Shown: positions 16,963 to 24,438 of the stretch, in pieces
Numbering within the stretch: the stretch's first letter is position 1
How the letters are laid out: each line of letters starts with the position of its first letter
IMG/VR virus record: IMGVR_UViG_638341084_000009
Source of the DNA: a virus
Lineage: Duplodnaviria > Heunggongvirae > Uroviricota > Caudoviricetes
Direction: 5' to 3' (one strand)
Length of the DNA stretch: 24,438 nt
Translations under genes and position numbers: made by a program
Notes under the pieces: generated by a model
Seen by the model: the letters and a program-made list of their open reading frames with translations, nothing else
Database searches by the model: none
Told to the model about the DNA's origin: nothing

Positions 16963-17165
16963 AACCTCACTCCCAGCGGACGACGGCGACGTCGGGTTGT
17001 CCCCAGTACCGACTCCGCATCATTGATCGCCCGGTTAAGCTCATCCAGAGAAGCCGCCGTATATTCAATTCTGCGACCATCTTTCTGGACAGACACCACC
17101 CGTTTACCGGTTAATAAATCAAGGCGCGCCTGACGTAGCGCCTGTAGTTCAGCGACTGTAACCAT
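16959..17165 (-). CDS. W: Head-tail joining protein W
   Basis: 68 aa, MVTVAELQALRQARLDLLTGKRVVSVQKDGRRIEYTAASLDEL…RRRRRPLG, lambda gpW homolog. Confidence 0.85.
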   Translation of the reverse strand: MVTVAELQALRQARLDLLTGKRVVSVQKDGRRIEYTAASLDELNRAINDAESVLGTTRRRRRPLGVRL

Positions 17166-19077
17166 TCACTCCTCCGGACAGCTTCGCTGCCAGTTCTTTC
17201 AGGGTTGGCCGGGTCGTCTCTTCTTCCCGGGATTTTGCCAGTACAGCCAGATCAAGCTGCCAGCGTTGCACGGACACACGTAATGCCGCGTAGGCATACA
17301 CCAGGCAGTCCAGCGCTTCGTTACGCCGCTTTTTGTTATCCCACAGCAGACGCATCTTTCCTTTTTCCCACTTCTCCACAAGCTCTTCCGCGACCAGTTG
17401 CTGCGCCTCTGTCTGCGAAAAAATCTCCGGATCATCAGGAAAACGGATGGCATACGACGTGGCTTCATCCGCAGGAGTGGGATCGGCTTTCATACGGGCA
17501 TAGAGAATTTCTTTTGCGGTGTCCGTCCCCACTTCACACAGATACACGCCCCGCTGATTGCGGGTTTTCGGCATGGTGATCACCGGCTTGCCATAGACAG
17601 ATGCGCCTTTTACCGGCAGCACCCGGAAAACACCGTGTTTTTTTGACCTCTGATAGACAATTTCACCATCGATCCCCCCGGTGTCCCAGCAGACACGGGA
17701 AATGGTCATTTCGGTTCCGTCTGCATGGCAGTATTTTTTGTTGATCGCCGCATCCACACGTAACAGCGTCTCTTCCTCATCGGGACGGCCCATAATGATG
17801 ATTTTATCCACCAGAAAGGCTTCCTCTCCCGGTGCCCATCCCCAGACATACATCTCAAAACGGTTTCGCTGCGAGTCAATGCCCGCCGTCAGATAAACCA
17901 CCCGGGCAGGCACCGCCGCCGTGTAACGCACCACCTTATCCATCAGTACCTGGTGATCGAGTTTTTCGCCCACGGCCTCTTCCCAGGTCTCGCCCAGCGT
18001 GGTGTTCACAAAGGTTTTCAGGCCGTTGGGATCTTTCAGTGCATCCAGCCAGTCATAGACTATCTGTATCCAGGTGGTGAACGGACTGTACGCCGTCCAG
18101 ATATGGAACGTGATGGAGCGCGGCGGCGGAATTTCATCCCCCCGGGCGCTGAAAAACATCAGGCCGTCACGGGTCCACATGCCCGTGTTTTCACAGATCC
18201 AGCGCCCGTTACTCTGGTCAAGCTCAGACTGATGGATCACGCAGCCATGATGTTCACAGAGGTAGAAAACGCTTTCGGGGCTGTCCTTCTCCCATTTAAG
18301 GCCAAAAGGCGTGGATTCATCGCCAAATTTCAGATACTGCGCCTCCCCACAGTGCGGGCAGGGCACATAGAAACGCATGAAATGCGCCGACTCGTTGGCC
18401 GCTTTTTCGATCTGGCAGGTACCTTTGATTTTAGGCGTCGAGCCGCGAATGGATTTTGGCCATACAGAGCCCTCAATACGCTTATCCCCCAGCAGGGTTG
18501 GCGAGCCCTCTTTTTCGACATCCGGCTCGAACGAGGAAAGCTCGTCATAGCAGACCACGTCCACGGATTTTTCACGGTAGTTTTTGGCGGCTGCACCGCC
18601 CAGGCACCAGAAACCGACGCCCGATGAAAAGCGTTTCAGCGTGAGAGTATTGTCACGATGTTTACGACCCAGCCATGGGGAAAGGTCTTTCAGGCATGGC
18701 ACGTTCCGAATCGTCGCCTCCACGTGAGACTTCATAAAATCTTCAGCGGCAGAATCCGTGGGCTGAAAAAGCAGACTGTTTCGGGATTTATGCTCAATAA
18801 AATACCCGACCACCCCCAGCAACATCTTTGTATAGCCAACACGGGCAGATTTAATCAGGTTAACCGTGCGAACCTGGTCGTTACCCATACAGTTCATAAT
18901 GGCGATCTGGAATGGCAGCGTTTTCCATTCTCCCTCACCATATGAAGATTCTTTAGGCAGATAATAATTTTGATCAGCCCATTCAACTGCCGTCATTGGT
19001 ACAACCCTGACCAGAGGCTGCAGCGCAACCGAAACGGCAGCCATCATATTATTCAGTTGTTGCTCTGATATATTCAT
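17149..19077 (-). CDS. A: Terminase large subunit A
   Basis: From ATG at 19075-19077: MNISEQQLNNMMAAVSVALQP…TAVEWADQNYYLPKESSYGEGEWKTLPFQIAIMNCMG… through …KRRNEALDCLVYAYAALRVSVQRWQLDL, colinear with lambda gpA. Overlaps the Nu1 3' end by 29 nt, as in lambda. Track start at 19134 is an over-extension. Confidence 0.9.
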   Translation of the reverse strand: MNISEQQLNNMMAAVSVALQPLVRVVPMTAVEWADQNYYLPKESSYGEGEWKTLPFQIAIMNCMGNDQVRTVNLIKSARVGYTKMLLGVVGYFIEHKSRNSLLFQPTDSAAEDFMKSHVEATIRNVPCLKDLSPWLGRKHRDNTLTLKRFSSGVGFWCLGGAAAKNYREKSVDVVCYDELSSFEPDVEKEGSPTLLGDKRIEGSVWPKSIRGSTPKIKGTCQIEKAANESAHFMRFYVPCPHCGEAQYLKFGDESTPFGLKWEKDSPESVFYLCEHHGCVIHQSELDQSNGRWICENTGMWTRDGLMFFSARGDEIPPPRSITFHIWTAYSPFTTWIQIVYDWLDALKDPNGLKTFVNTTLGETWEEAVGEKLDHQVLMDKVVRYTAAVPARVVYLTAGIDSQRNRFEMYVWGWAPGEEAFLVDKIIIMGRPDEEETLLRVDAAINKKYCHADGTEMTISRVCWDTGGIDGEIVYQRSKKHGVFRVLPVKGASVYGKPVITMPKTRNQRGVYLCEVGTDTAKEILYARMKADPTPADEATSYAIRFPDDPEIFSQTEAQQLVAEELVEKWEKGKMRLLWDNKKRRNEALDCLVYAYAALRVSVQRWQLDLAVLAKSREEETTRPTLKELAAKLSGGVNGYSR

Positions 19078-19558
19078 CGAGTAAATCCGGTAATTTATCC
19101 CCTGCCCGCGCACACTGATTTGCCCCCTTCGCAATAAGGGTTTTCAGATGGTCAAGATGGCGCGGTGTTAAATCAGGAAACTGTCGCTGCATGGATAAAG
19201 GGATGGAATCAAGCGTACTGGATAACGCCATTGCCAGCTTACTGAGGGCAAAAATACAGAACCCGGTGTCAATCAGTTTTCCTTTTGACACCTCATTTTT
19301 TAACTGCTGTGTAACAGCCTGTTCTGCTGTCAGTTCCCATCTGGCAATAAGCAATTTCTCCTCATAGTCGTCTTCGCTATCGCCATCAGGCACATCGTTT
19401 TTACTTCTCCTCAGATACGATATGTAAAAATCGCGCCAGGCATCCAGATCCAGTTGCCCTCGCTTATTCGATATCGGGGCACCCGGCAATTTCTGCAATC
19501 TGCGAAGCTGGCGATCGGTCAGACTTAAATGCCTGGCAACTTCAGTCTGCGTAGCCAC
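19049..19558 (-). CDS. Nu1: Terminase small subunit Nu1-like (divergent N-terminal HTH domain, lambda-like C-terminal half)
   Basis: Apparent GTG start at 19556-19558 preceded by AGGTGAGGA. N-terminus (V/M)ATQTEVARHLSLTDRQLRRLQKLPGAP looks like an HTH but is unlike lambda Nu1. C-terminal half …DTGFCIFALSKLAMALSSTLDSIPLSMQRQFPDLTPRHLDHLKTLIAKG…LLDEYI is clearly Nu1-like. Confidence 0.8.
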   Translation of the reverse strand: MATQTEVARHLSLTDRQLRRLQKLPGAPISNKRGQLDLDAWRDFYISYLRRSKNDVPDGDSEDDYEEKLLIARWELTAEQAVTQQLKNEVSKGKLIDTGFCIFALSKLAMALSSTLDSIPLSMQRQFPDLTPRHLDHLKTLIAKGANQCARAGDKLPDLLDEYIRATTE

Positions 19559-19597
19559 TCCTCACCTCGCAAAAACTCTCACCTCACAATCACAACA

Positions 19598-19705
19598 AAA
19601 CCGGTCATGTCCGGTTTACATGTCTGTTTTTTGTTCATGTCCGGTTCACAGAAGACCTGTTTTTATATTTTTCATATAGTTAACTTGAAGAGAAACCGGA
19701 CATGG
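19598..19705. promoter_or_regulatory. cosB-like region: three copies of an 11 bp element CATGTCCGGTT (two direct, one inverted), candidate terminase small-subunit R sites
   Basis: Copies at 19606-19616 and 19636-19646 (plus orientation) and 19694-19704 (inverted, as AACCGGACATG). The first is embedded in a perfect inverted repeat AAACCGG-N6-CCGGTTT (19598-19617). An A/T-rich tract (19655-19690) between copies 2 and 3 could be a bend or IHF site. All lie between the Nu1 start and cosN. Confidence 0.55.
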
Positions 19706-19741
19706 ATCCCGGAAAATTTTCATAAATAGCGAAAACCCGCG

Positions 19742-19753
19742 AGGTCGCCGCCC
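19742..19753. other. cosN, cohesive end site (12 nt overhang region identical to lambda)
   Basis: 19709-19753 reverse-complemented reads GGGCGGCGACCTCGCGGGTTTTCGCTATTTATGAAAATTTTCCGG, which I recognise as the lambda left cohesive end and adjacent bases. Spacing to the Nu1 start is about 185 bp, as in lambda. Confidence 0.8.
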
Positions 19754-19789
19754 CGTAACCTGTCGGATCGCCGGAAAGGACCCACGAAA

Positions 19790-19806
19790 ATGATAATAAT
19801 TATCAT
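19790..19806. repeat. Inverted repeat ATGATAA-TAA-TTATCAT just outside cosN (cosQ-side), candidate protein-binding site
   Basis: 7 bp perfect arms with a 3 bp centre, read directly. My recollection is that lambda has a similar palindrome at the equivalent position near its right end. Confidence 0.5.
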
Positions 19807-19960
19807 CTACATGAGGTTTATCACGACATGTGTGTACGCCATCAAACCACGAGAAATAATCAATTATTACGCAGGTATCGTATTAATTGATCTGCATCAA
19901 ATTAGCGTAAAAGCAACTTCAGATAATACAAATCAGCAACACTGAATACGGGGCAACATT

Positions 19961-20185
19961 ATGTCATCAAAGAACAGAACCCGCAGAACAACAACCCGCA
20001 ACATCCGATTTCCAAACCAGATAATTGAACAAATTAACATCGCTCTTGACCTGAAAGGTTCAGGTAATTTTTCAGCGTGGGTTATTGAAGCCTGCAGAAG
20101 AAGATTAATTAATGAAAAATATTCTCAATTTGTACCCAACAAAGACAAACACGACCAGAGCACCTGTTCAGACAGGTTTACTTAA
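19961..20185 (+). CDS. Small ribbon-helix-helix-like protein (YlcI/DUF3950-like, near cos), function unknown
   Basis: 74 aa, MSSKNRTRRTTTRNIRFPNQIIEQINIALDLKGSGNFSAWVIEACRRRL…: basic N-terminus, short beta-strand (NIRFP) then two helices, the RHH/Arc-MetJ pattern. Opposite strand to the late operon, followed by a strong terminator. I recall a similar small ORF at this position in lambda and DLP12 (ylcI). Confidence 0.6.
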   Translation: MSSKNRTRRTTTRNIRFPNQIIEQINIALDLKGSGNFSAWVIEACRRRLINEKYSQFVPNKDKHDQSTCSDRFT

Positions 20186-20203
20186 ACGACTTATATATGA
20201 CAC

Positions 20204-20231
20204 AAAAAGCGACCACTAAAGTCGCTTTTTC
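20204..20231. terminator. Bidirectional rho-independent terminator between the convergent RHH gene and PerC-like gene
   Basis: AAAA-GCGAC-(CACTAAA)-GTCGC-TTTTT: perfect stem with an A-run on one side and a T-run on the other, so it works on both strands. Confidence 0.7.
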
Positions 20232-20266
20232 TTATGGTAACAGGCAATAACTCTCTCAGATATTTT

Positions 20267-20581
20267 TTAGCATTTTTTTGACCGCGCGTTTCCGGACGTA
20301 TTCTGTTCTCCTGTCCCTTTATATCGTCGGAATACCCGCCGCTCTTCAAATCCCATTCCCAACTCAGAATGTAGTCTGTTGACCGCTTGTTTTATTTCGG
20401 TCAGGTTCACCGGTGAAACCGGAGTCCGGCGCGCCTTACGCAAACACTCTGCTCGTTTCTGTGCCGCCACTTTTCTTTTCTGGTCATCACTTAGCTGTAC
20501 CATCACTTTTGCCCATCGTTCAGCTGCTCTCCGGTACAGTCCTTTTTTCTCCAGACATTCTGCCACGTGATCATGTAGCAT
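20267..20581 (-). CDS. PerC-like (Pch-family) putative transcriptional activator, phage moron
   Basis: ATG at 20579-20581 with GGAGG RBS 7 nt upstream. 104 aa, MLHDHVAECLEKKGLYRRAAERWAKVMVQLSDDQKRKVAAQKRAECLRK…; the AE-LE--GL-RRAA-RW--VM N-terminal pattern matches my recollection of the PerC family. Gene is well supported; family assignment is from memory. Confidence 0.55.
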   Translation of the reverse strand: MLHDHVAECLEKKGLYRRAAERWAKVMVQLSDDQKRKVAAQKRAECLRKARRTPVSPVNLTEIKQAVNRLHSELGMGFEERRVFRRYKGTGEQNTSGNARSKKC

Positions 20582-21045
20582 AAGTGACCTCCGATTATCT
20601 ACAGACTGCCATCCTGAATTTACCTTCCCTTAATGAAATAACAATAAAAAACAAACCACGCAAAAACAATAAAACAACACACAAAAAAACTAAATAATAA
20701 ACAAAAATAATCACCTTATTTTATTATTTTTTGAGGGAGCAATTACTGAACAAAAAACGCTGACTATATACTCAAAACCAAACAACTATTCTGCCAATCA
20801 GGTATCATGGCAACACACGGAATTACCGTGTTTTTGCCTTCTCTGCCCATACAATACGGGCATATACTTCATTCTCTATTGTAATATTTCTATCCATGTG
20901 CCCCACTCCATTTACCTGTAAATAATATTCAAAATATTTATCACAGAAATCGTTTTTGGCCATGAACTGAGCACACTATAAAGTCCGGAACTGACTCTTT
21001 GTTAAATTACCTTAACGTTACCAGTAACACCTTCATAACAAAACA
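20582..21045. other. 464 bp AT-rich non-coding spacer between Rz and the PerC-like gene, with a strongly A+C-skewed tract at about 20636-20715
   Basis: GC content visibly far below the flanking phage genes (about 60 percent A in places). 20641-20700 contains 1 G and 5 T in 60 nt. No ORF of 60 aa or more on either strand. Probable promoter/leader for the PerC-like gene. Confidence 0.5.
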
Positions 21046-21513
21046 TCACGGTATACACTGGGTACGGATATATTCCTGTGCTCCTTCCAGTTGCTTCTGC
21101 ATTGCCATCAGCCGTTCTCTGAGGATGAAATAATCCCGTTCAGCGGTGTCTGCCAGTCGGGGGCCGGTTGCATTATCCACGCCGGAGGTGCCGGTGGCTT
21201 CACGCACGGTACCGGAGCAGGTGGCGTTGATCCGCAGGCGCTTACGACCAGCGGCAACATCAGCACGCAGAGTTTCATTTTCAGCTCTCGCATCGGCTAA
21301 TTCCCTCGAGTATCTGGCATCAAGTGCAGCGACATCACGCTGACGCATCTGCATGTCAGTAATTGCCGCGTTCGCCAGCTTCAGTTCTCTGACATTTTTG
21401 TCGCGCTGGGCTTTGTAGGTAATGGCGTTATCACGGTAATGATTCAGCCCCAGACTAAGCGCACCACAGGCCACCAGCAGGGCAATGATGACCACGCACA
21501 GTACGCGGTTCAT
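21046..21513 (-). CDS. Rz: Inner-membrane spanin subunit Rz (i-spanin)
   Basis: 155 aa, [66 protein letters not shown]… nearly colinear with lambda Rz. Confidence 0.9.
21108..21293 (-). CDS. Rz1: Outer-membrane lipoprotein spanin subunit Rz1 (o-spanin), embedded in the +1 frame of Rz
   Basis: 61 aa, [61 protein letters not shown]: lipobox LVVSAC, Pro-rich, matches lambda Rz1, and is fully nested in Rz. Confidence 0.8.
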
Positions 21514-21514
21514 T

Positions 21515-21613
21515 TCACCACCAGCGTATCTGACCGATGAAATAACCGGAGGCCATAATCACAAACACCAGCCAGATAAGAATGAACTTCCAGGTGGATA
21601 ATTTTTCAGCCAT
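21515..21613 (-). CDS. Hypothetical 32 aa single-pass membrane peptide, translationally coupled to Rz
   Basis: ATG at 21611-21613 with [41 protein letters not shown] has one hydrophobic helix. Its stop TGA sits 1 nt before the Rz ATG. No homolog recognised from memory, and a short ORF could be fortuitous. Confidence 0.35.
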
Positions 21614-21691
21614 CACTCGAATCTCCCGAATCAGTTTGCTAAAATCAAACACACTTTCTCCTTTGACTTTTCCGGAGTCAGGAAACACAAA

Positions 21692-21723
21692 ACCCCCGCT
21701 TGGTGCCAACAAACGGGGTTTTT
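21692..21723 (+). terminator. Hairpin with T-run in the R to Rz intergenic gap (candidate plus-strand or weak bidirectional terminator)
   Basis: Stem CCCCGCTTG / CAAACGGGG (8 of 9 pairs) with 7 nt loop, followed by TTTTTACTTTT on the plus strand and preceded by an A-rich tract. Confidence 0.35.
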
Positions 21724-21812
21724 ACTTTTATTCACTTACGTTTCGCCAGTTCGCAGGATTTCATGTTATCCGCCCGCGTGGCCATGCCTTATTTTTCAGC
21801 AAAATATTCTGC

Positions 21813-22401: not shown

Positions 22402-22716
22402 CTAACAACACGTAATCGAGTTATCAGAACTGTTAATTTTTATGGTATTCCGCGCCTCTGAACAGGGGCGCGTTTCTGGCAACAGCTCGTCCTCTTCACA
22501 TAACCCGGCAGCAACATCCAGGAAGACCTGTCTGATGCTCCTTCTGGCTGCTGCCTCATAAAACTCCAGCGCGGCACCTTCAACACGGTCCAGCGAGATG
22601 TCCAGGTCAAAAATTTCACCGTCAAAGCGTTTTTTGTCCCGTAACGCTAAAGTTACCGTAACTTTATTCTCAAAATTGCGGATCCCTTTCACAATCAGTT
22701 CATAGTTTTGAGTCAT
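22402..22716 (-). CDS. YdfR-like protein (DUF1327-like) of unknown function, inserted between holin and endolysin
   Basis: 104 aa, MTQNYELIVKGIRNFENKVTVTLALRDKKRFDGEIFDLDISLDRVEGAALEFYEAAARRSIRQVFLDVAAGL…. Strong GGGGAGAG RBS, 4 nt after the holin stop. No predicted TM segment. Same location as ydfR in E. coli Qin (essQ-ydfR-rrrQ), as I recall it. Confidence 0.65.
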   Translation of the reverse strand: MTQNYELIVKGIRNFENKVTVTLALRDKKRFDGEIFDLDISLDRVEGAALEFYEAAARRSIRQVFLDVAAGLCEEDELLPETRPCSEARNTIKINSSDNSITCC

Positions 22717-23086: not shown

Positions 23087-24438
23087 TTATGATGATGCCG
23101 GTGCATTTATCTCCAGCACCAGACTTTCTATCTCAACGCCATACGCTGCATTTTTGGTAATATCCGTCAGCGTCAGCGCATTCAGCCCCAGTGTCAGACT
23201 GTCTTTTATGACCTGGAATGCCGGGCCAGCCACTCCATTCAGTTTCGGAGTAACCGTGGCACTGCCGGCGGTGAACACCAGCTCCAGCGTCTGCCAGTCG
23301 TTACCGTAATCGCCGAACTCCCCCAGCTTCGTGTTTCCGGCTTTCCTGTGATGCATCAGATTCACTCTGCCGTCAGTGGTCTGAGTGAAGTGCGACATCA
23401 GGAACGGATTACCGGTACCCGTCATCGCCACACCATCAGGAACGGGAGCGTCCGTATACAGATAAATCCCCAGCCCGAACTGATTGTTGGTCAGTGCGCC
23501 TGAGAGGCGGAACTTACAGGTCAGTCTGCCGCCCTGTGTCAGCAGGGTAATTGCGTCATCCACCGGATGCATCAGGGACCAGGTTTTATTGCTCTGCTTG
23601 GTGATCTTAAATACACCATCTGACAACTGAATTCCGCCGTCCTTAATGGTCCAGCCCTGCGCAGCAGCATCTCCGGCTGTCGGCATCAGGGAGATTGTGC
23701 GTATGGATGCATCTTCAGACGGCCCCGATGGCGTGTTGCCGCCGGGCGAGGGTTTGATTTCCGGTGCCTTACCACTGATGAAGGCTGAGGTGCGCCCGGC
23801 TGCGTTCAGAATAGCGGTTGCCAGACGATCCGGAATAATGCTCCTGCGCGCCCATGAACTGAAATGTGTCGGGCGGTTTGATGATACCTGGTTTCCATTC
23901 GTTCTCGATGCCGCACCGTAATATCCTGATGCCGGAATATCCGGATCTTCTGCCGGCGCGTTAGTGGCGGTATTGACGCCGTTACCGTCTGTCATGAAGG
24001 GCACAAAATAAACGCCCTCACTCTCCCTGTTTTTATACCCGCCGTACACGGTGTCGTACTGGGTAGCGTATGTATTTTTCCAGTAATACGTCGTGTCACC
24101 ACAAATCCACGGCACATCTGCAGCACTGCCACCATGACACTGCGCGTTAAACACAGTGAGGTCAGCACGAAACTGCTTCAGCATGGCTGTAAACAGCGCA
24201 GGTTGCTGTGCGTAGGTGGCGGCGCTCATGTCAAACTCTCCCTGCATCCAGCACACCGCCAGCAACACATTTTTCGGGTTCTTCTGTAATGCAGCTTTAG
24301 TGCGCGCAATCAGGTCCTGATATAACGGTTTACCCACCCCCCAGCGCGCCGAATCCTGGCTGGCCCCCGCGTCCGCACTGAATGTCCCCTCCGCGCCCTG
24401 GGTGAATGCCGAACCACCACGACAGCATGGTACCAGCA
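23087..24438 (-). CDS. SASA-domain esterase-like protein (NanS-p / sialate O-acetylesterase-like prophage protein), 5' partial (N-terminus beyond window)
   Basis: Minus-strand frame is open from the window edge with no stop: …SAFTQGAEGTFSADAGASQDSARWGVGKPLYQDLIART…VLLAVCWMQGEFD… then a long Gly/Thr/Ser-rich C-terminal domain ending …EINAPASS. The position directly upstream of the holin matches nanS-p-type genes in Stx-type and other EHEC prophages. Assignment is from memory of that family. Confidence 0.5.
   Translation of the reverse strand, partial: LVPCCRGGSAFTQGAEGTFSADAGASQDSARWGVGKPLYQDLIARTKAALQKNPKNVLLAVCWMQGEFDMSAATYAQQPALFTAMLKQFRADLTVFNAQCHGGSAADVPWICGDTTYYWKNTYATQYDTVYGGYKNRESEGVYFVPFMTDGNGVNTATNAPAEDPDIPASGYYGAASRTNGNQVSSNRPTHFSSWARRSIIPDRLATAILNAAGRTSAFISGKAPEIKPSPGGNTPSGPSEDASIRTISLMPTAGDAAAQGWTIKDGGIQLSDGVFKITKQSNKTWSLMHPVDDAITLLTQGGRLTCKFRLSGALTNNQFGLGIYLYTDAPVPDGVAMTGTGNPFLMSHFTQTTDGRVNLMHHRKAGNTKLGEFGDYGNDWQTLELVFTAGSATVTPKLNGVAGPAFQVIKDSLTLGLNALTLTDITKNAAYGVEIESLVLEINAPASS

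What the first reader, a model, noticed from the sequence alone, without database searches (positions are those of the whole stretch)
20267..21045. PerC-like regulator moron with a 460 bp AT-rich, strand-skewed leader between Rz and cos
Downstream of Rz, where lambda carries bor, there is a 104 aa ORF with good RBS whose N-terminus has the PerC-family pattern (…AECLEKKGLYRRAAERWAKVM…). PerC homologs on EHEC prophages (Pch) activate the LEE virulence island, so this could be a phage-borne virulence regulator. Its upstream region is extremely AT-rich and contains a tract (about 20636-20715) composed almost only of A and C on the plus strand, giving a U/G-rich mRNA leader. That composition suggests H-NS silencing at the DNA level and possibly S1/Hfq-type translational control at the RNA level.
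Basis: partly seen in the sequence, partly recalled or inferred. Interest (0 to 1): 0.6.

Follow-up and report, generated by a model that had tools for sequence, protein, structure and literature searches.

The report
Known EHEC virulence regulator gene pchA
The flagged ORF is the well-studied prophage gene pchA, which switches on the gut-attachment (LEE) genes of enterohaemorrhagic E. coli, and the AT-rich DNA in front of it is its already-cloned regulatory region, so the finding is correct but not new.

Summary
The 104-aa ORF at 20267-20581 (minus strand) hits Pfam PerC over its full length (E 3.8e-44). Its coding sequence is 100% identical to pchA (ECs_1091) of E. coli O157:H7 Sakai. The whole 941-nt block, upstream region included, differs from Sakai at 3 positions.

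The 464-bp gap between Rz and the ORF has the lowest GC in the window (0.25 against 0.548). It also holds the window's most extreme A/C-only tract (20636-20715: A55 C16 T8 G1).

This gap is not an unknown leader. Primers published for the butyrate-responsive "PpchA" promoter bracket exactly 20582-21080. Papers I could read report control of pchA transcription by LrhA, Lrp/butyrate and NtrC/sigma-S. They also report translational control in which the coding sequence masks the ribosome-binding site and the sRNA DicF with Hfq opens it.

Gap and gene travel together as one roughly 950-bp cargo in the slot where other prophages carry bor/iss. They occur in 673 of 5,426 complete E. coli genomes.

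One modest new point: the U/G-rich tract (-165..-46) is the most variable part of the locus. That argues against a sequence-specific RNA element. Its role and the transcription start remain unresolved here.

Verdict: already known, low interest.

The parts
20267..20581 (-). pchA-type gene (group 1 Pch, PerC family), 104 aa
   Evidence: Pfam PF06069 E 3.8e-44, 149.3 bits against a cut-off of 22.6, residues 1-89 of a 90-position model. Coding sequence 100% identical to Sakai pchA ECs_1091. Protein 99% identical to PchB, 98% to PchC, 47% to EPEC PerC of pMAR7.
20588..20592 (-). Shine-Dalgarno GGAGG, 6 nt upstream of the ATG
   Evidence: Read directly from the sequence. Conserved in all homologues aligned.
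20534..20614 (-). Predicted mRNA structure that pairs the Shine-Dalgarno region with the early coding sequence
   Evidence: MFE -22.9 kcal/mol, z -1.76, 6 of 200 shuffles fold as well. The same pairing recurs in longer folds. A consensus fold of 4 homologues instead pairs the SD with +40..+50, using one-sided changes only. Masking of the RBS by the coding sequence is the published mechanism (PMC7769764).
20627..20746 (-). Hypervariable U/G-rich (plus strand A/C-rich) tract, -165..-46 from the ATG; core 20636-20715
   Evidence: Composition statistics. Identity to the window in this tract is 71.9% (pchB) and 70.4% (A25), against 98.0/96.7% in the distal region and 99.7/94.0% in the coding sequence. 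33-58% of columns vary, against 3-16% distal and 2-10% in the coding sequence, across 13 distinct copies.
20747..21045 (-). Conserved distal upstream region (-166..-464), presumed promoter and operator DNA
   Evidence: 96-99.7% identical among pchA, pchB, pchC, O121 and A25 copies. Lies inside the published PpchA amplicon.
20785..20813 (-). Only sigma-70-like promoter candidate on the pch strand: TTGCCA, 17-nt spacer, AATAGT. It would give a 5' UTR of about 200 nt.
   Evidence: Consensus scan, 9 of 12 matches. The number of sites in the region is not above the shuffle expectation. Retained in all paralogues, with AATTGT in pchB. Prediction only.
20809..20838 (.). Strong hairpin in the distal upstream region. 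On the plus strand it resembles a terminator.
   Evidence: -16.7 kcal/mol on the minus strand and -14.8 on the plus strand, z -5.24, 0 of 200 shuffles. Listed as terminator-like on the plus strand. 4 of 6 paralogues carry stem changes with no consistent compensation.
20823..20963 (-). 46-codon ORF inside the upstream region, probably not coding
   Evidence: No Pfam or NCBIfam hit. Not annotated by PGAP. Matches phrog_2157. Only relatives of 83% identity or more, of varying length. 2 synonymous to 8 non-synonymous changes, equal to the neutral expectation of 0.19. No Shine-Dalgarno in front.
20204..20230 (.). Bidirectional intrinsic terminator shared by pch (minus strand) and ylcI (plus strand)
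   Evidence: Hairpin of -14.7 kcal/mol (z -3.89) on the minus strand and -11.2 (z -3.0) on the plus strand, with A and U runs on either side.
20104..21055 (-). Extent of the cargo (moron) relative to prophages that lack pch
   Evidence: Homology to pch-less prophages L008, L009 and L010 stops at 20103-20108 and resumes at 21056-21068. The same slot holds iss/bor or small hypothetical genes in those prophages.
20582..21080 (-). Region identical to the published 'PpchA' butyrate-responsive promoter fragment
   Evidence: Both primers given in PMC10101121 match the window once each, at 21060-21080 and 20582-20602.
21046..21513 (-). Rz spanin gene, with Rz1 embedded at 21108-21293; the upstream backbone neighbour
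   Evidence: Pfam Phage_lysis E 3.1e-49. ORF list.
19961..20185 (+). ylcI/ynfO-family gene (DUF3950); the downstream neighbour, convergent with pch
   Evidence: Pfam DUF3950 E 1.3e-17. NCBIfam YlcI_YnfO_N.

Best explanation
The ORF is pchA, a group 1 'PerC homologue' carried as a cargo gene (moron) of a lambdoid prophage of LEE-positive E. coli. The 464 bp upstream are its native regulatory region.

How it works (from the literature, not shown here):
- PchA binds the LEE1/ler promoter region.
- It remodels the H-NS/StpA nucleoprotein complex there.
- ler, and through it the type III secretion island, is then expressed.

How pchA is controlled (also from the literature):
- Transcription runs from the upstream region. 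It responds to LrhA, butyrate through Lrp, and NtrC/sigma-S.
- Translation is blocked when the early coding sequence pairs with the Shine-Dalgarno region. The sRNA DicF with Hfq opens this pairing under low oxygen.

Because the window differs from the Sakai pchA locus at only 3 of 941 positions, the same mechanisms are inferred to apply here.

The U/G-rich tract is part of this cargo. It evolves fast and keeps only its composition. I read it as a composition-dependent spacer within the promoter or 5' UTR, not as a sequence-specific element.
For: - Identity: Pfam PerC hit over the full length. Coding sequence 100% and the 941-nt locus 99.7% identical to Sakai ECs_1091 'transcriptional regulator PchA'.
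- Family relations: PchB and PchC differ by 1-2 residues; EPEC PerC is 47% identical.
- Cargo status: homology to pch-less prophages breaks at about 20103 and 21056. The slot holds iss/bor elsewhere.
- Linkage: gap and gene always co-occur, in 673 of 5,426 genomes, at 1-5 copies each, always full length. In 10 further assemblies the Rz-to-pch spacing is again 464-465 bp.
- Own terminator.
- The published PpchA fragment equals 20582-21080. It drives butyrate-dependent sfGFP in E. coli BL21 with high basal activity (PMC10101121).
- Function of Pch: PMC6265319, PMC4764244, PMC4456613.
- LrhA, Lrp and NtrC inputs: PMC4456613, PMC13012123, PMC10714755.
- DicF/Hfq and SD masking: PMC7769764, PMC7873438, PMC7308464.
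- Folds of the window sequence place the SD in a helix with the early coding sequence.
Against: - Nothing contradicts the identity.
- The predicted SD-masking structure is only modestly better than shuffles (z -1.76). Two alternative anti-SD partners (+24..+31 and +40..+50) are predicted.
- I could not recover a DicF pairing site better than shuffled DicF.
- Only one weak promoter candidate was found, and the site count is no higher than chance.
- The primary papers that map the promoter and the DicF site (Melson & Kendall 2019; Honda 2009; Nakanishi 2006) were not available. Whether the tract is transcribed is therefore unknown to me.
- Whether this particular host carries the LEE cannot be seen from the window.
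Confidence: 0.93

Rival explanations
1. First reader's RNA-level reading. The tract lies in a long 5' UTR (transcription start near -200). As a U/G-rich single-stranded stretch it recruits Hfq or ribosomal protein S1 to set pchA translation or mRNA stability. This concerns the role of the tract only and is compatible with the ORF being pchA.
For: The only promoter-like site on the pch strand (20813-20785) would put the tract in the transcript, and it is kept in all paralogues. pchA translation is Hfq-dependent according to PMC7308464. The tract keeps T+G at 0.69-0.72 in pchA, pchB, pchC and the O121 copy despite up to 28% sequence divergence.
Against: The transcription start is unknown. The tract is the most variable part of the locus, including indels. 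In the pchA/pchB/pchC/O121/A25-type copies it falls to 0.63 T+G in A25. In the more distant homologues the equivalent -165..-45 stretch is a different, non-alignable sequence at 0.57-0.59. Its predicted unpaired probability (0.34) does not differ from that of its neighbours. The published Hfq/DicF mechanism maps to the SD and coding sequence, not to this tract (PMC7769764). There is no Rfam match.
Confidence: 0.2
2. DNA-level reading. The tract is AT-rich promoter-proximal or promoter-internal DNA. Its role would be to bind nucleoid proteins (H-NS/StpA silencing, relieved by LrhA, Lrp or LeuO-type factors) or to bend the DNA. Only base composition would then be under selection.
For: Lowest GC in the window (0.25) and the strongest strand asymmetry. 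AT-richness of -165..-45 is kept even in the divergent homologues, with GC 0.19-0.32 in E. albertii, pDEC5B-4 and MOD1. The whole fragment acts as a regulated promoter (PMC10101121). Horizontally acquired AT-rich DNA is the general H-NS target (PMC4764244).
Against: The H-NS high-affinity motif is not enriched across the window (18 matches against 14.8 expected), and the single two-mismatch match in the gap (20999-21008) lies outside the tract. Lrp-consensus matches in the gap are weak, with 3 mismatches. I could access no ChIP data for this locus. High basal activity of PpchA in BL21 (PMC10101121) argues against tight silencing on a plasmid.
Confidence: 0.35
3. Neutral reading. The tract is a low-complexity, slippage-prone spacer with no function of its own. 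It was carried along when the cargo was acquired and drifts freely.
For: 33-58% of its columns vary, against 2-16% elsewhere. Changes include homopolymer length differences such as T7 against T8 between the window and Sakai pchA. No covariation or conserved motif was detected.
Against: Tract length is nearly constant: Rz-to-ATG spacing is 463-468 bp in all 17 copies examined. Strand-asymmetric composition is retained in pchA, pchB and pchC. Free drift would not obviously preserve either feature. However, the copies are young and exchange by recombination, so this is weak.
Confidence: 0.3
4. The gap hides another gene. This would be either the 46-codon ORF (20823-20963, minus strand) or a roughly 100-nt antisense sRNA on the plus strand ending at the hairpin 20809-20838.
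For: The ORF is open in all six paralogues and matches phrog_2157. There is a plus-strand promoter-like site at 20698-20727 and a terminator-like hairpin with a U-run at 20815-20838.
Against: ORF: the substitution pattern is neutral (2 synonymous to 8 non-synonymous). There is no SD, no distant homologue, the ORF length varies among relatives, and PGAP does not call it. sRNA: the plus-strand promoter lies in the hypervariable tract and is lost in pchB. The hairpin stem is altered in 4 of 6 copies without consistent compensation. There is no Rfam match.
Confidence: 0.05

Closest known systems
PchA (ECs_1091, prophage Sp4) of E. coli O157:H7 Sakai, with its paralogues PchB (ECs_2182, Sp11) and PchC (ECs_2737, Sp14)
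   Same: Protein identical to PchA. PchB differs by 1 residue and PchC by 2. Same 464-465-bp upstream region. Same position downstream of Rz, and the same terminator.
   Different: 3 nucleotide differences outside the coding sequence. In Sakai Sp4 the lysis-pchA block is flanked by IS629/ISEc8 and the ylcI side is replaced. The window keeps the intact Rz-pch-ylcI-cos-Nu1 order seen in Sp11 and Sp14.
PerC of the EPEC pEAF plasmid (perABC operon, pMAR7)
   Same: Same Pfam family, 47% identity over 87 residues, and reported to activate the same target promoter (LEE1) (PMC4764244).
   Different: PerC is 89 aa. It is plasmid-borne and is the third gene of the perABC operon, with only about 50 nt separating it from perB. 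It therefore has no AT-rich region of its own. It lacks the 15-residue C-terminal tail. LEE dependence differs between EPEC and EHEC (PMC4764244).
bor/iss morons of lambda-like prophages
   Same: They occupy the same slot between Rz and ylcI/cos. They are small stand-alone virulence-associated cargo genes expressed from the prophage.
   Different: Unrelated protein (an outer-membrane lipoprotein), opposite orientation relative to Rz, and no sequence similarity to the pch cargo.
DicF-activated mRNAs (sRNA anti-antisense activation)
   Same: pchA is the published example in which DicF with Hfq opens an intramolecular SD-masking helix (PMC7769764). The window carries the identical SD and coding sequence.
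   Different: The sRNA site is reported inside the coding sequence rather than in the 5' UTR. I could not locate it independently. No dicF copy lies in this window, whereas Sakai Sp4 carries one.

Membership tests
PerC family (Pfam PF06069) | Profile HMM score above the curated gathering threshold, over the whole domain | tested here: met
   149.3 bits against 22.6, E 3.8e-44, residues 1-89 on model positions 1-89 of 90.
PerC family (Pfam PF06069) | Detectable similarity to the founding member, EPEC PerC | tested here: met
   47% identity, E 1e-27, to pMAR7 PerC. 39 columns are invariant across 9 homologues.
Group 1 Pch (PchA/B/C) | 104-aa protein nearly identical to Sakai PchA, PchB and PchC | tested here: met
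   100%, 99% and 98% identity respectively.
Group 1 Pch (PchA/B/C) | Encoded on a lambdoid prophage, downstream of the lysis genes | tested here: met
   Order: holin, lysozyme, Rz/Rz1, pch, ylcI, cos, Nu1, terminase large subunit. Same order in Sp11 and Sp14.
Group 1 Pch (PchA/B/C) | Activates ler/LEE1 transcription and adherence | not testable with these tools
   Shown experimentally for the identical protein (Iyoda & Watanabe 2004, as cited in PMC6265319; PMC4764244).
Phage moron | Inserted between two genes that are adjacent, or separated by different cargo, in related phages | tested here: met
   Homology breaks at about 20103 and 21056. Alternative cargo (iss/bor, small ORFs) sits in the same slot.
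Phage moron | Own terminator | tested here: met
   Hairpin 20204-20230 with a U-run, z -3.9.
Phage moron | Own promoter, independent of late transcription | tested here: inconclusive
   One sigma-70-like site, and the site count is not above chance. The cloned fragment 20582-21080 does drive a reporter, according to PMC10101121.
Phage moron | Base composition different from the phage backbone | tested here: met
   Gap GC 0.334, minimum 0.247, against 0.548 for the window.
DicF/Hfq-controlled SD-masking leader | Shine-Dalgarno region paired with the coding sequence | tested here: inconclusive
   The predicted MFE and centroid structures pair the SD with the early coding sequence, but z is only -1.76. 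Two alternative partners are predicted, and there are only one-sided changes in 4 homologues.
DicF/Hfq-controlled SD-masking leader | Complementarity to DicF better than chance | tested here: inconclusive
   Best duplexes are not better than shuffled DicF (24 of 200 and 86 of 200 shuffles as good).
H-NS-silenced horizontally acquired locus | AT-rich DNA with high-affinity H-NS motifs, and H-NS occupancy | tested here: inconclusive
   The AT-rich criterion is met. The motif TCGATAAATT is not enriched across the window, and the only match in the gap (20999-21008, two mismatches) lies outside the tract. Occupancy is not testable here, and no locus-level ChIP data were accessible.
Any Rfam RNA family (leader, riboswitch or sRNA) | Covariance-model match | tested here: not met
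   No hit at gathering thresholds in the window. At E up to 5 in 19500-21200 there is only a chance-level SAM-II hit.

The most novel reading that the evidence does not exclude
The U/G-rich tract at -165..-46 is a fast-evolving tuning module constrained in length and composition. Its alleles (pchA-type, pchB-type, A25-type) would set paralogue-specific Pch output. This could act at the RNA level (Hfq, S1 or RNase E access in a long 5' UTR) or at the DNA level (H-NS or LrhA access). It would explain the reported differential regulation of pchA and pchB despite near-identical proteins and distal promoters.
Probability: 0.2. Interest if true: 0.35.

Novelty: already known. Interest (0 to 1): 0.15.

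Why it matters
pchA, pchB and pchC are master switches linking prophage content to LEE type III secretion in EHEC and related pathotypes, so recognising one correctly matters for annotating and typing a strain. Nothing here changes what is known. The gene, its role, its upstream promoter fragment (used as a butyrate biosensor) and its DicF/Hfq translational control are all published. The one addition is descriptive: within a locus that is 96-100% conserved, the U/G-rich stretch just upstream of the ribosome-binding region is a hotspot of divergence. That hotspot is a cheap, testable candidate for why nearly identical pch paralogues are regulated differently.

Tried and rejected
1. DicF pairing. 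Full-length and segment-wise duplex energies of K-12 and Sp4 DicF against -464..+318 and -60..+120 of the mRNA were no better than shuffled DicF. I could not place the DicF site.
2. H-NS motif. TCGATAAATT with up to 2 mismatches gave 18 matches against 14.8 expected across the window. The only one in the gap (20999-21008) lies outside the tract.
3. Lrp consensus. Matches in the gap are weak, with 3 mismatches. The one perfect match lies 1.2 kb upstream, next to the lysozyme gene, and follows the lysozyme allele rather than pch.
4. Rfam at gathering and permissive thresholds: nothing.
5. Promoter scan: one candidate on the pch strand, with a site count below the shuffle expectation.
6. The 46-codon ORF as a real gene: rejected.
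7. Antisense sRNA ending at the 20809-20838 hairpin: not supported by conservation.
8. More distant homologues to test conservation of the leader. Only E. albertii and an Escherichia sp. contig were found in the species-representative genomes. They share only about -70 (E. albertii) and about -26 (Escherichia sp.) to the stop codon.
9. Free phage genomes: only two unannotated fragments match.
10. Transcription start from the literature.
11. H-NS ChIP tables in the PMC4764244 supplements: no locus-level data.
12. PDB: no solved relative.

Full report
**Observation**

The region reads as described. On the minus strand a 104-codon ORF runs from 20581 to 20267 and contains the quoted AECLEKKGLYRRAAERWAKVM stretch. 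A GGAGG lies 6 nt before its ATG.

The neighbours, all read on the minus strand unless stated:
- Upstream is Rz (21046-21513, Pfam Phage_lysis E 3.1e-49), with Rz1 embedded.
- Downstream is a bidirectional terminator hairpin at 20204-20230 (z -3.9).
- Next is a convergent ylcI/ynfO (DUF3950) gene at 19961-20185.
- Then comes the lambda-type cohesive-end sequence at 19742-19753 and four CATGTCCGGTT repeats.
- Last are a Nu1-type small terminase and the large terminase.

The 464-bp gap 20582-21045 has GC 0.334 against 0.548 for the window. It contains all five of the lowest-GC 150-nt windows. The tract 20636-20715 is A55 C16 T8 G1. The best A/C-only segment of the whole window (20640-20707, score 44) exceeds every one of 200 Markov simulations (maximum 33) and every one of 1000 shuffles of the gap.

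**What it is**

The ORF matches Pfam PerC end to end (E 3.8e-44, 149 bits against a cut-off of 22.6).

The 1.3-kb block 19900-21200 is 100% identical in chromosomes of O145, O111 and O26-type strains. There it is annotated 'PerC family transcriptional regulator' between 'lysis protein' and 'YlcI/YnfO family protein'.

I fetched prophage Sp4 of O157:H7 Sakai. The window's 20180-21120 differs from the pchA locus (ECs_1091, 'transcriptional regulator PchA') at 3 of 941 positions, none in the coding sequence. PchB (Sp11) differs by V7L. PchC (Sp14) differs by V7L and V58M. EPEC PerC of pMAR7 is 47% identical. The ORF is therefore a group 1 Pch gene, allele pchA.

**Cargo status and distribution**

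The gap is found in 673 of 5,426 complete E. coli genomes, at 1-5 copies per genome and always at full length. The same number of genomes (673) carries the whole Rz-pch-ylcI block. No feature is annotated inside it.

I joined the Rz and ylcI flanks into one query, which showed what other prophages carry in this slot: iss/bor or small hypothetical genes. Pairwise BLAST places the homology breaks at about 20103, inside the 3' part of ylcI, and about 21056, just inside the 3' end of Rz, whose stop codon is at 21046-21048.

The unit that moves is thus about 950 bp. It comprises the whole AT-rich gap, pch, the terminator and a variant ylcI tail. The same block sits next to lambda-type Nu1/A packaging genes in the window, Sp11 and Sp14. 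In other strains it sits next to an HNH plus Terminase_2 module.

The exact protein is listed in 15,398 blocks of the assembly collection. This meets the definition of a moron.

**What is already known about the gap**

Primers published for the butyrate-inducible 'PpchA' promoter (PMC10101121) match the window once each, at 21060-21080 and 20582-20602. The flagged 'leader' plus 35 nt of Rz is therefore exactly the fragment already cloned in front of sfGFP. That paper reports butyrate-dependent expression in E. coli BL21 with high basal activity. It also states that the operator within the fragment has not been narrowed down.

Reported inputs and function:
- LrhA, Lrp/butyrate/LeuO and NtrC/sigma-S act on pchA transcription (PMC4456613, PMC13012123, PMC10714755).
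- The pchA coding sequence is reported to pair with the Shine-Dalgarno region and block translation. DicF with Hfq is reported to bind the coding sequence and open the site under low oxygen (PMC7769764, PMC7873438, PMC7308464).
- Pch binds the LEE1 region and counteracts H-NS/StpA silencing (PMC4764244). Group 1 pch genes are required for full ler and espA expression and for adherence (PMC6265319).

**My own tests of these mechanisms on the window sequence**

- Folding -34..+52 gives a hairpin that pairs UCGGAGGU with +24..+31, closed by -28..-22 pairing with +40..+46. It is -22.9 kcal/mol, z -1.76, and 6 of 200 shuffles fold as well.
- A consensus fold of four homologues (window, A25, E. albertii, Escherichia sp.) instead pairs the SD with +40..+50 (GACUGUACCGG). 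All pairs are kept, but only through one-sided changes.
- SD masking by the coding sequence is therefore plausible in silico. It is not independently proven, and the partner is ambiguous.
- Duplex predictions with K-12 and Sp4 DicF were no better than shuffled DicF.
- The window holds no DicF gene. Sakai Sp4, which carries pchA, does.

**The U/G tract**

I aligned six copies: window, pchA, pchB, pchC, an O121 strain and monkey isolate A25.

| Segment | Identity to window: pchB | Identity to window: A25 |
|---|---|---|
| Distal, -464..-166 | 98.0% | 96.7% |
| Tract, -165..-46 | 71.9% | 70.4% |
| Coding sequence | 99.7% | 94.0% |

The tract differences include indels.

With ten more assemblies (13 distinct sequences in all), 33-58% of columns vary in the tract. 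This compares with 3-16% in the distal part and 2-10% in the coding sequence.

Tract length is nearly constant. The T+G content on the mRNA-sense strand stays at 0.69-0.72 in the EHEC paralogues. It is 0.63 in A25.

In E. albertii, plasmid pDEC5B-4 and the MOD1 contig the homology to the window ends between -26 and -70. In those homologues the -165..-45 stretch is a different sequence that is still AT-rich (GC 0.19-0.32) but much less strand-asymmetric, with T+G 0.57-0.59.

The tract is therefore not a sequence-specific conserved element. At most its composition and length are constrained.

Whether it is transcribed depends on the start site. The only sigma-70-like site on the pch strand (TTGCCA, 17-nt spacer, AATAGT, at 20813-20785) would give a 5' UTR of about 200 nt that includes the tract. 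That site is a weak consensus match, and the region holds no more such sites than shuffled sequence.

**Other features in the gap**

- A 46-codon ORF (20823-20963, minus strand) matches phrog_2157. It has no SD and no relative below 83% identity. PGAP does not call it. It shows 2 synonymous to 8 non-synonymous changes, where 0.19 synonymous is the neutral expectation. I reject it as a gene.
- A strong hairpin at 20809-20838 (z -5.2) resembles a plus-strand terminator and overlaps the predicted -35. Four of six paralogues carry stem changes without consistent compensation. Its role is open.

**Comparison with known systems and novelty**

This is PchA with its native regulatory region, and both are published. 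It differs from EPEC PerC in being a stand-alone prophage cargo with its own AT-rich control region, rather than the third gene of the perABC operon. It shares its slot, but nothing else, with bor/iss.

Hfq control exists, but at the SD and coding sequence. H-NS is the target of Pch action at the LEE and has not been shown at pch itself. My tests do not support those ideas for the tract.

**Verdict**

- Novelty: already known.
- Interest: 0.15.

The only addition is the divergence hotspot in the U/G tract. It gives a testable, modest hypothesis for paralogue-specific regulation (probability about 0.2).

Noticed in passing
window 19599-19753: The lambda-type cohesive-end sequence (complement of GGGCGGCGACCT) lies at 19742-19753. 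Four copies of CATGTCCGGTT in both orientations lie at 19599-19704, between cosN and the Nu1-type gene. They look like cosB-type small-terminase binding sites.
   Followed up: partly
window 19961-20185 (+): The ylcI/ynfO (DUF3950) gene converges on pch. Homology to pch-less prophages stops at 20103, so its last ~27 codons and the shared terminator travel with the pch cargo.
   Followed up: partly
window 20809-20838: A very stable hairpin (z -5.2 on both strands) sits inside the conserved distal upstream region and overlaps the predicted -35 of pch. On the plus strand it is followed by a U-run like a terminator. Stem changes in 4 of 6 paralogues show no consistent compensation.
   Followed up: partly
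window 20823-20963 (-): A 46-codon ORF matches PHROG family phrog_2157 (unknown function). It evolves neutrally, has no ribosome-binding site and is not called by PGAP. It is probably an annotation artefact that became a 'family'.
   Followed up: yes
window 21797-21811 (-): A perfect match to the Lrp consensus YAGHAWATTWTDCTR (CAGAATATTTTGCTG) lies just 3' of the lysozyme gene, 1.2 kb upstream of pch. It is also present at the Sakai pchB, pchC and A25 loci, but not at Sakai pchA or O26. It therefore follows the lysozyme allele, not pch.
   Followed up: partly
L002:15733-15784 (Sakai prophage Sp4): The prophage that carries pchA in Sakai also carries a DicF sRNA gene (Rfam RF00039, 76.9 bits). 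Regulator RNA and target mRNA can therefore ride on the same prophage. The window's 24 kb holds no dicF.
   Followed up: partly
L002:32131-37400; L015, L020, L024: In pchA-type copies of O157 an IS629 lies immediately downstream of pchA and replaces the ylcI side. In Sakai Sp4 the lysis-pchA block is inverted relative to the terminase genes, between IS629 and ISEc8.
   Followed up: no
L006, L007, L016, L017 versus window 17149-19558: The same Rz-pch-ylcI block is joined to two unrelated packaging modules. One is lambda-type Nu1/gpA with cos, as in the window. The other is HNH endonuclease plus a Terminase_2-type small subunit. This shows modular exchange around the cargo.
   Followed up: partly
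window 22402-22716 (-) and 23087-24337 (-): A DUF1327-type 104-aa ORF (phrog_2735) sits between the holin and lysozyme genes. A 416-aa ORF upstream of the holin matches phrog_143. Its counterpart in O26 is annotated 'SASA family carbohydrate esterase', which I take to be of the NanS-p type. That attribution rests on my own knowledge and was not tested.
   Followed up: no
window 21515-21712 (-): A 65-codon ORF lies directly upstream of Rz. Its last 45 residues match phrog_6632. A shorter version (114 nt) is annotated as a hypothetical protein in O26 and Sakai.
   Followed up: no
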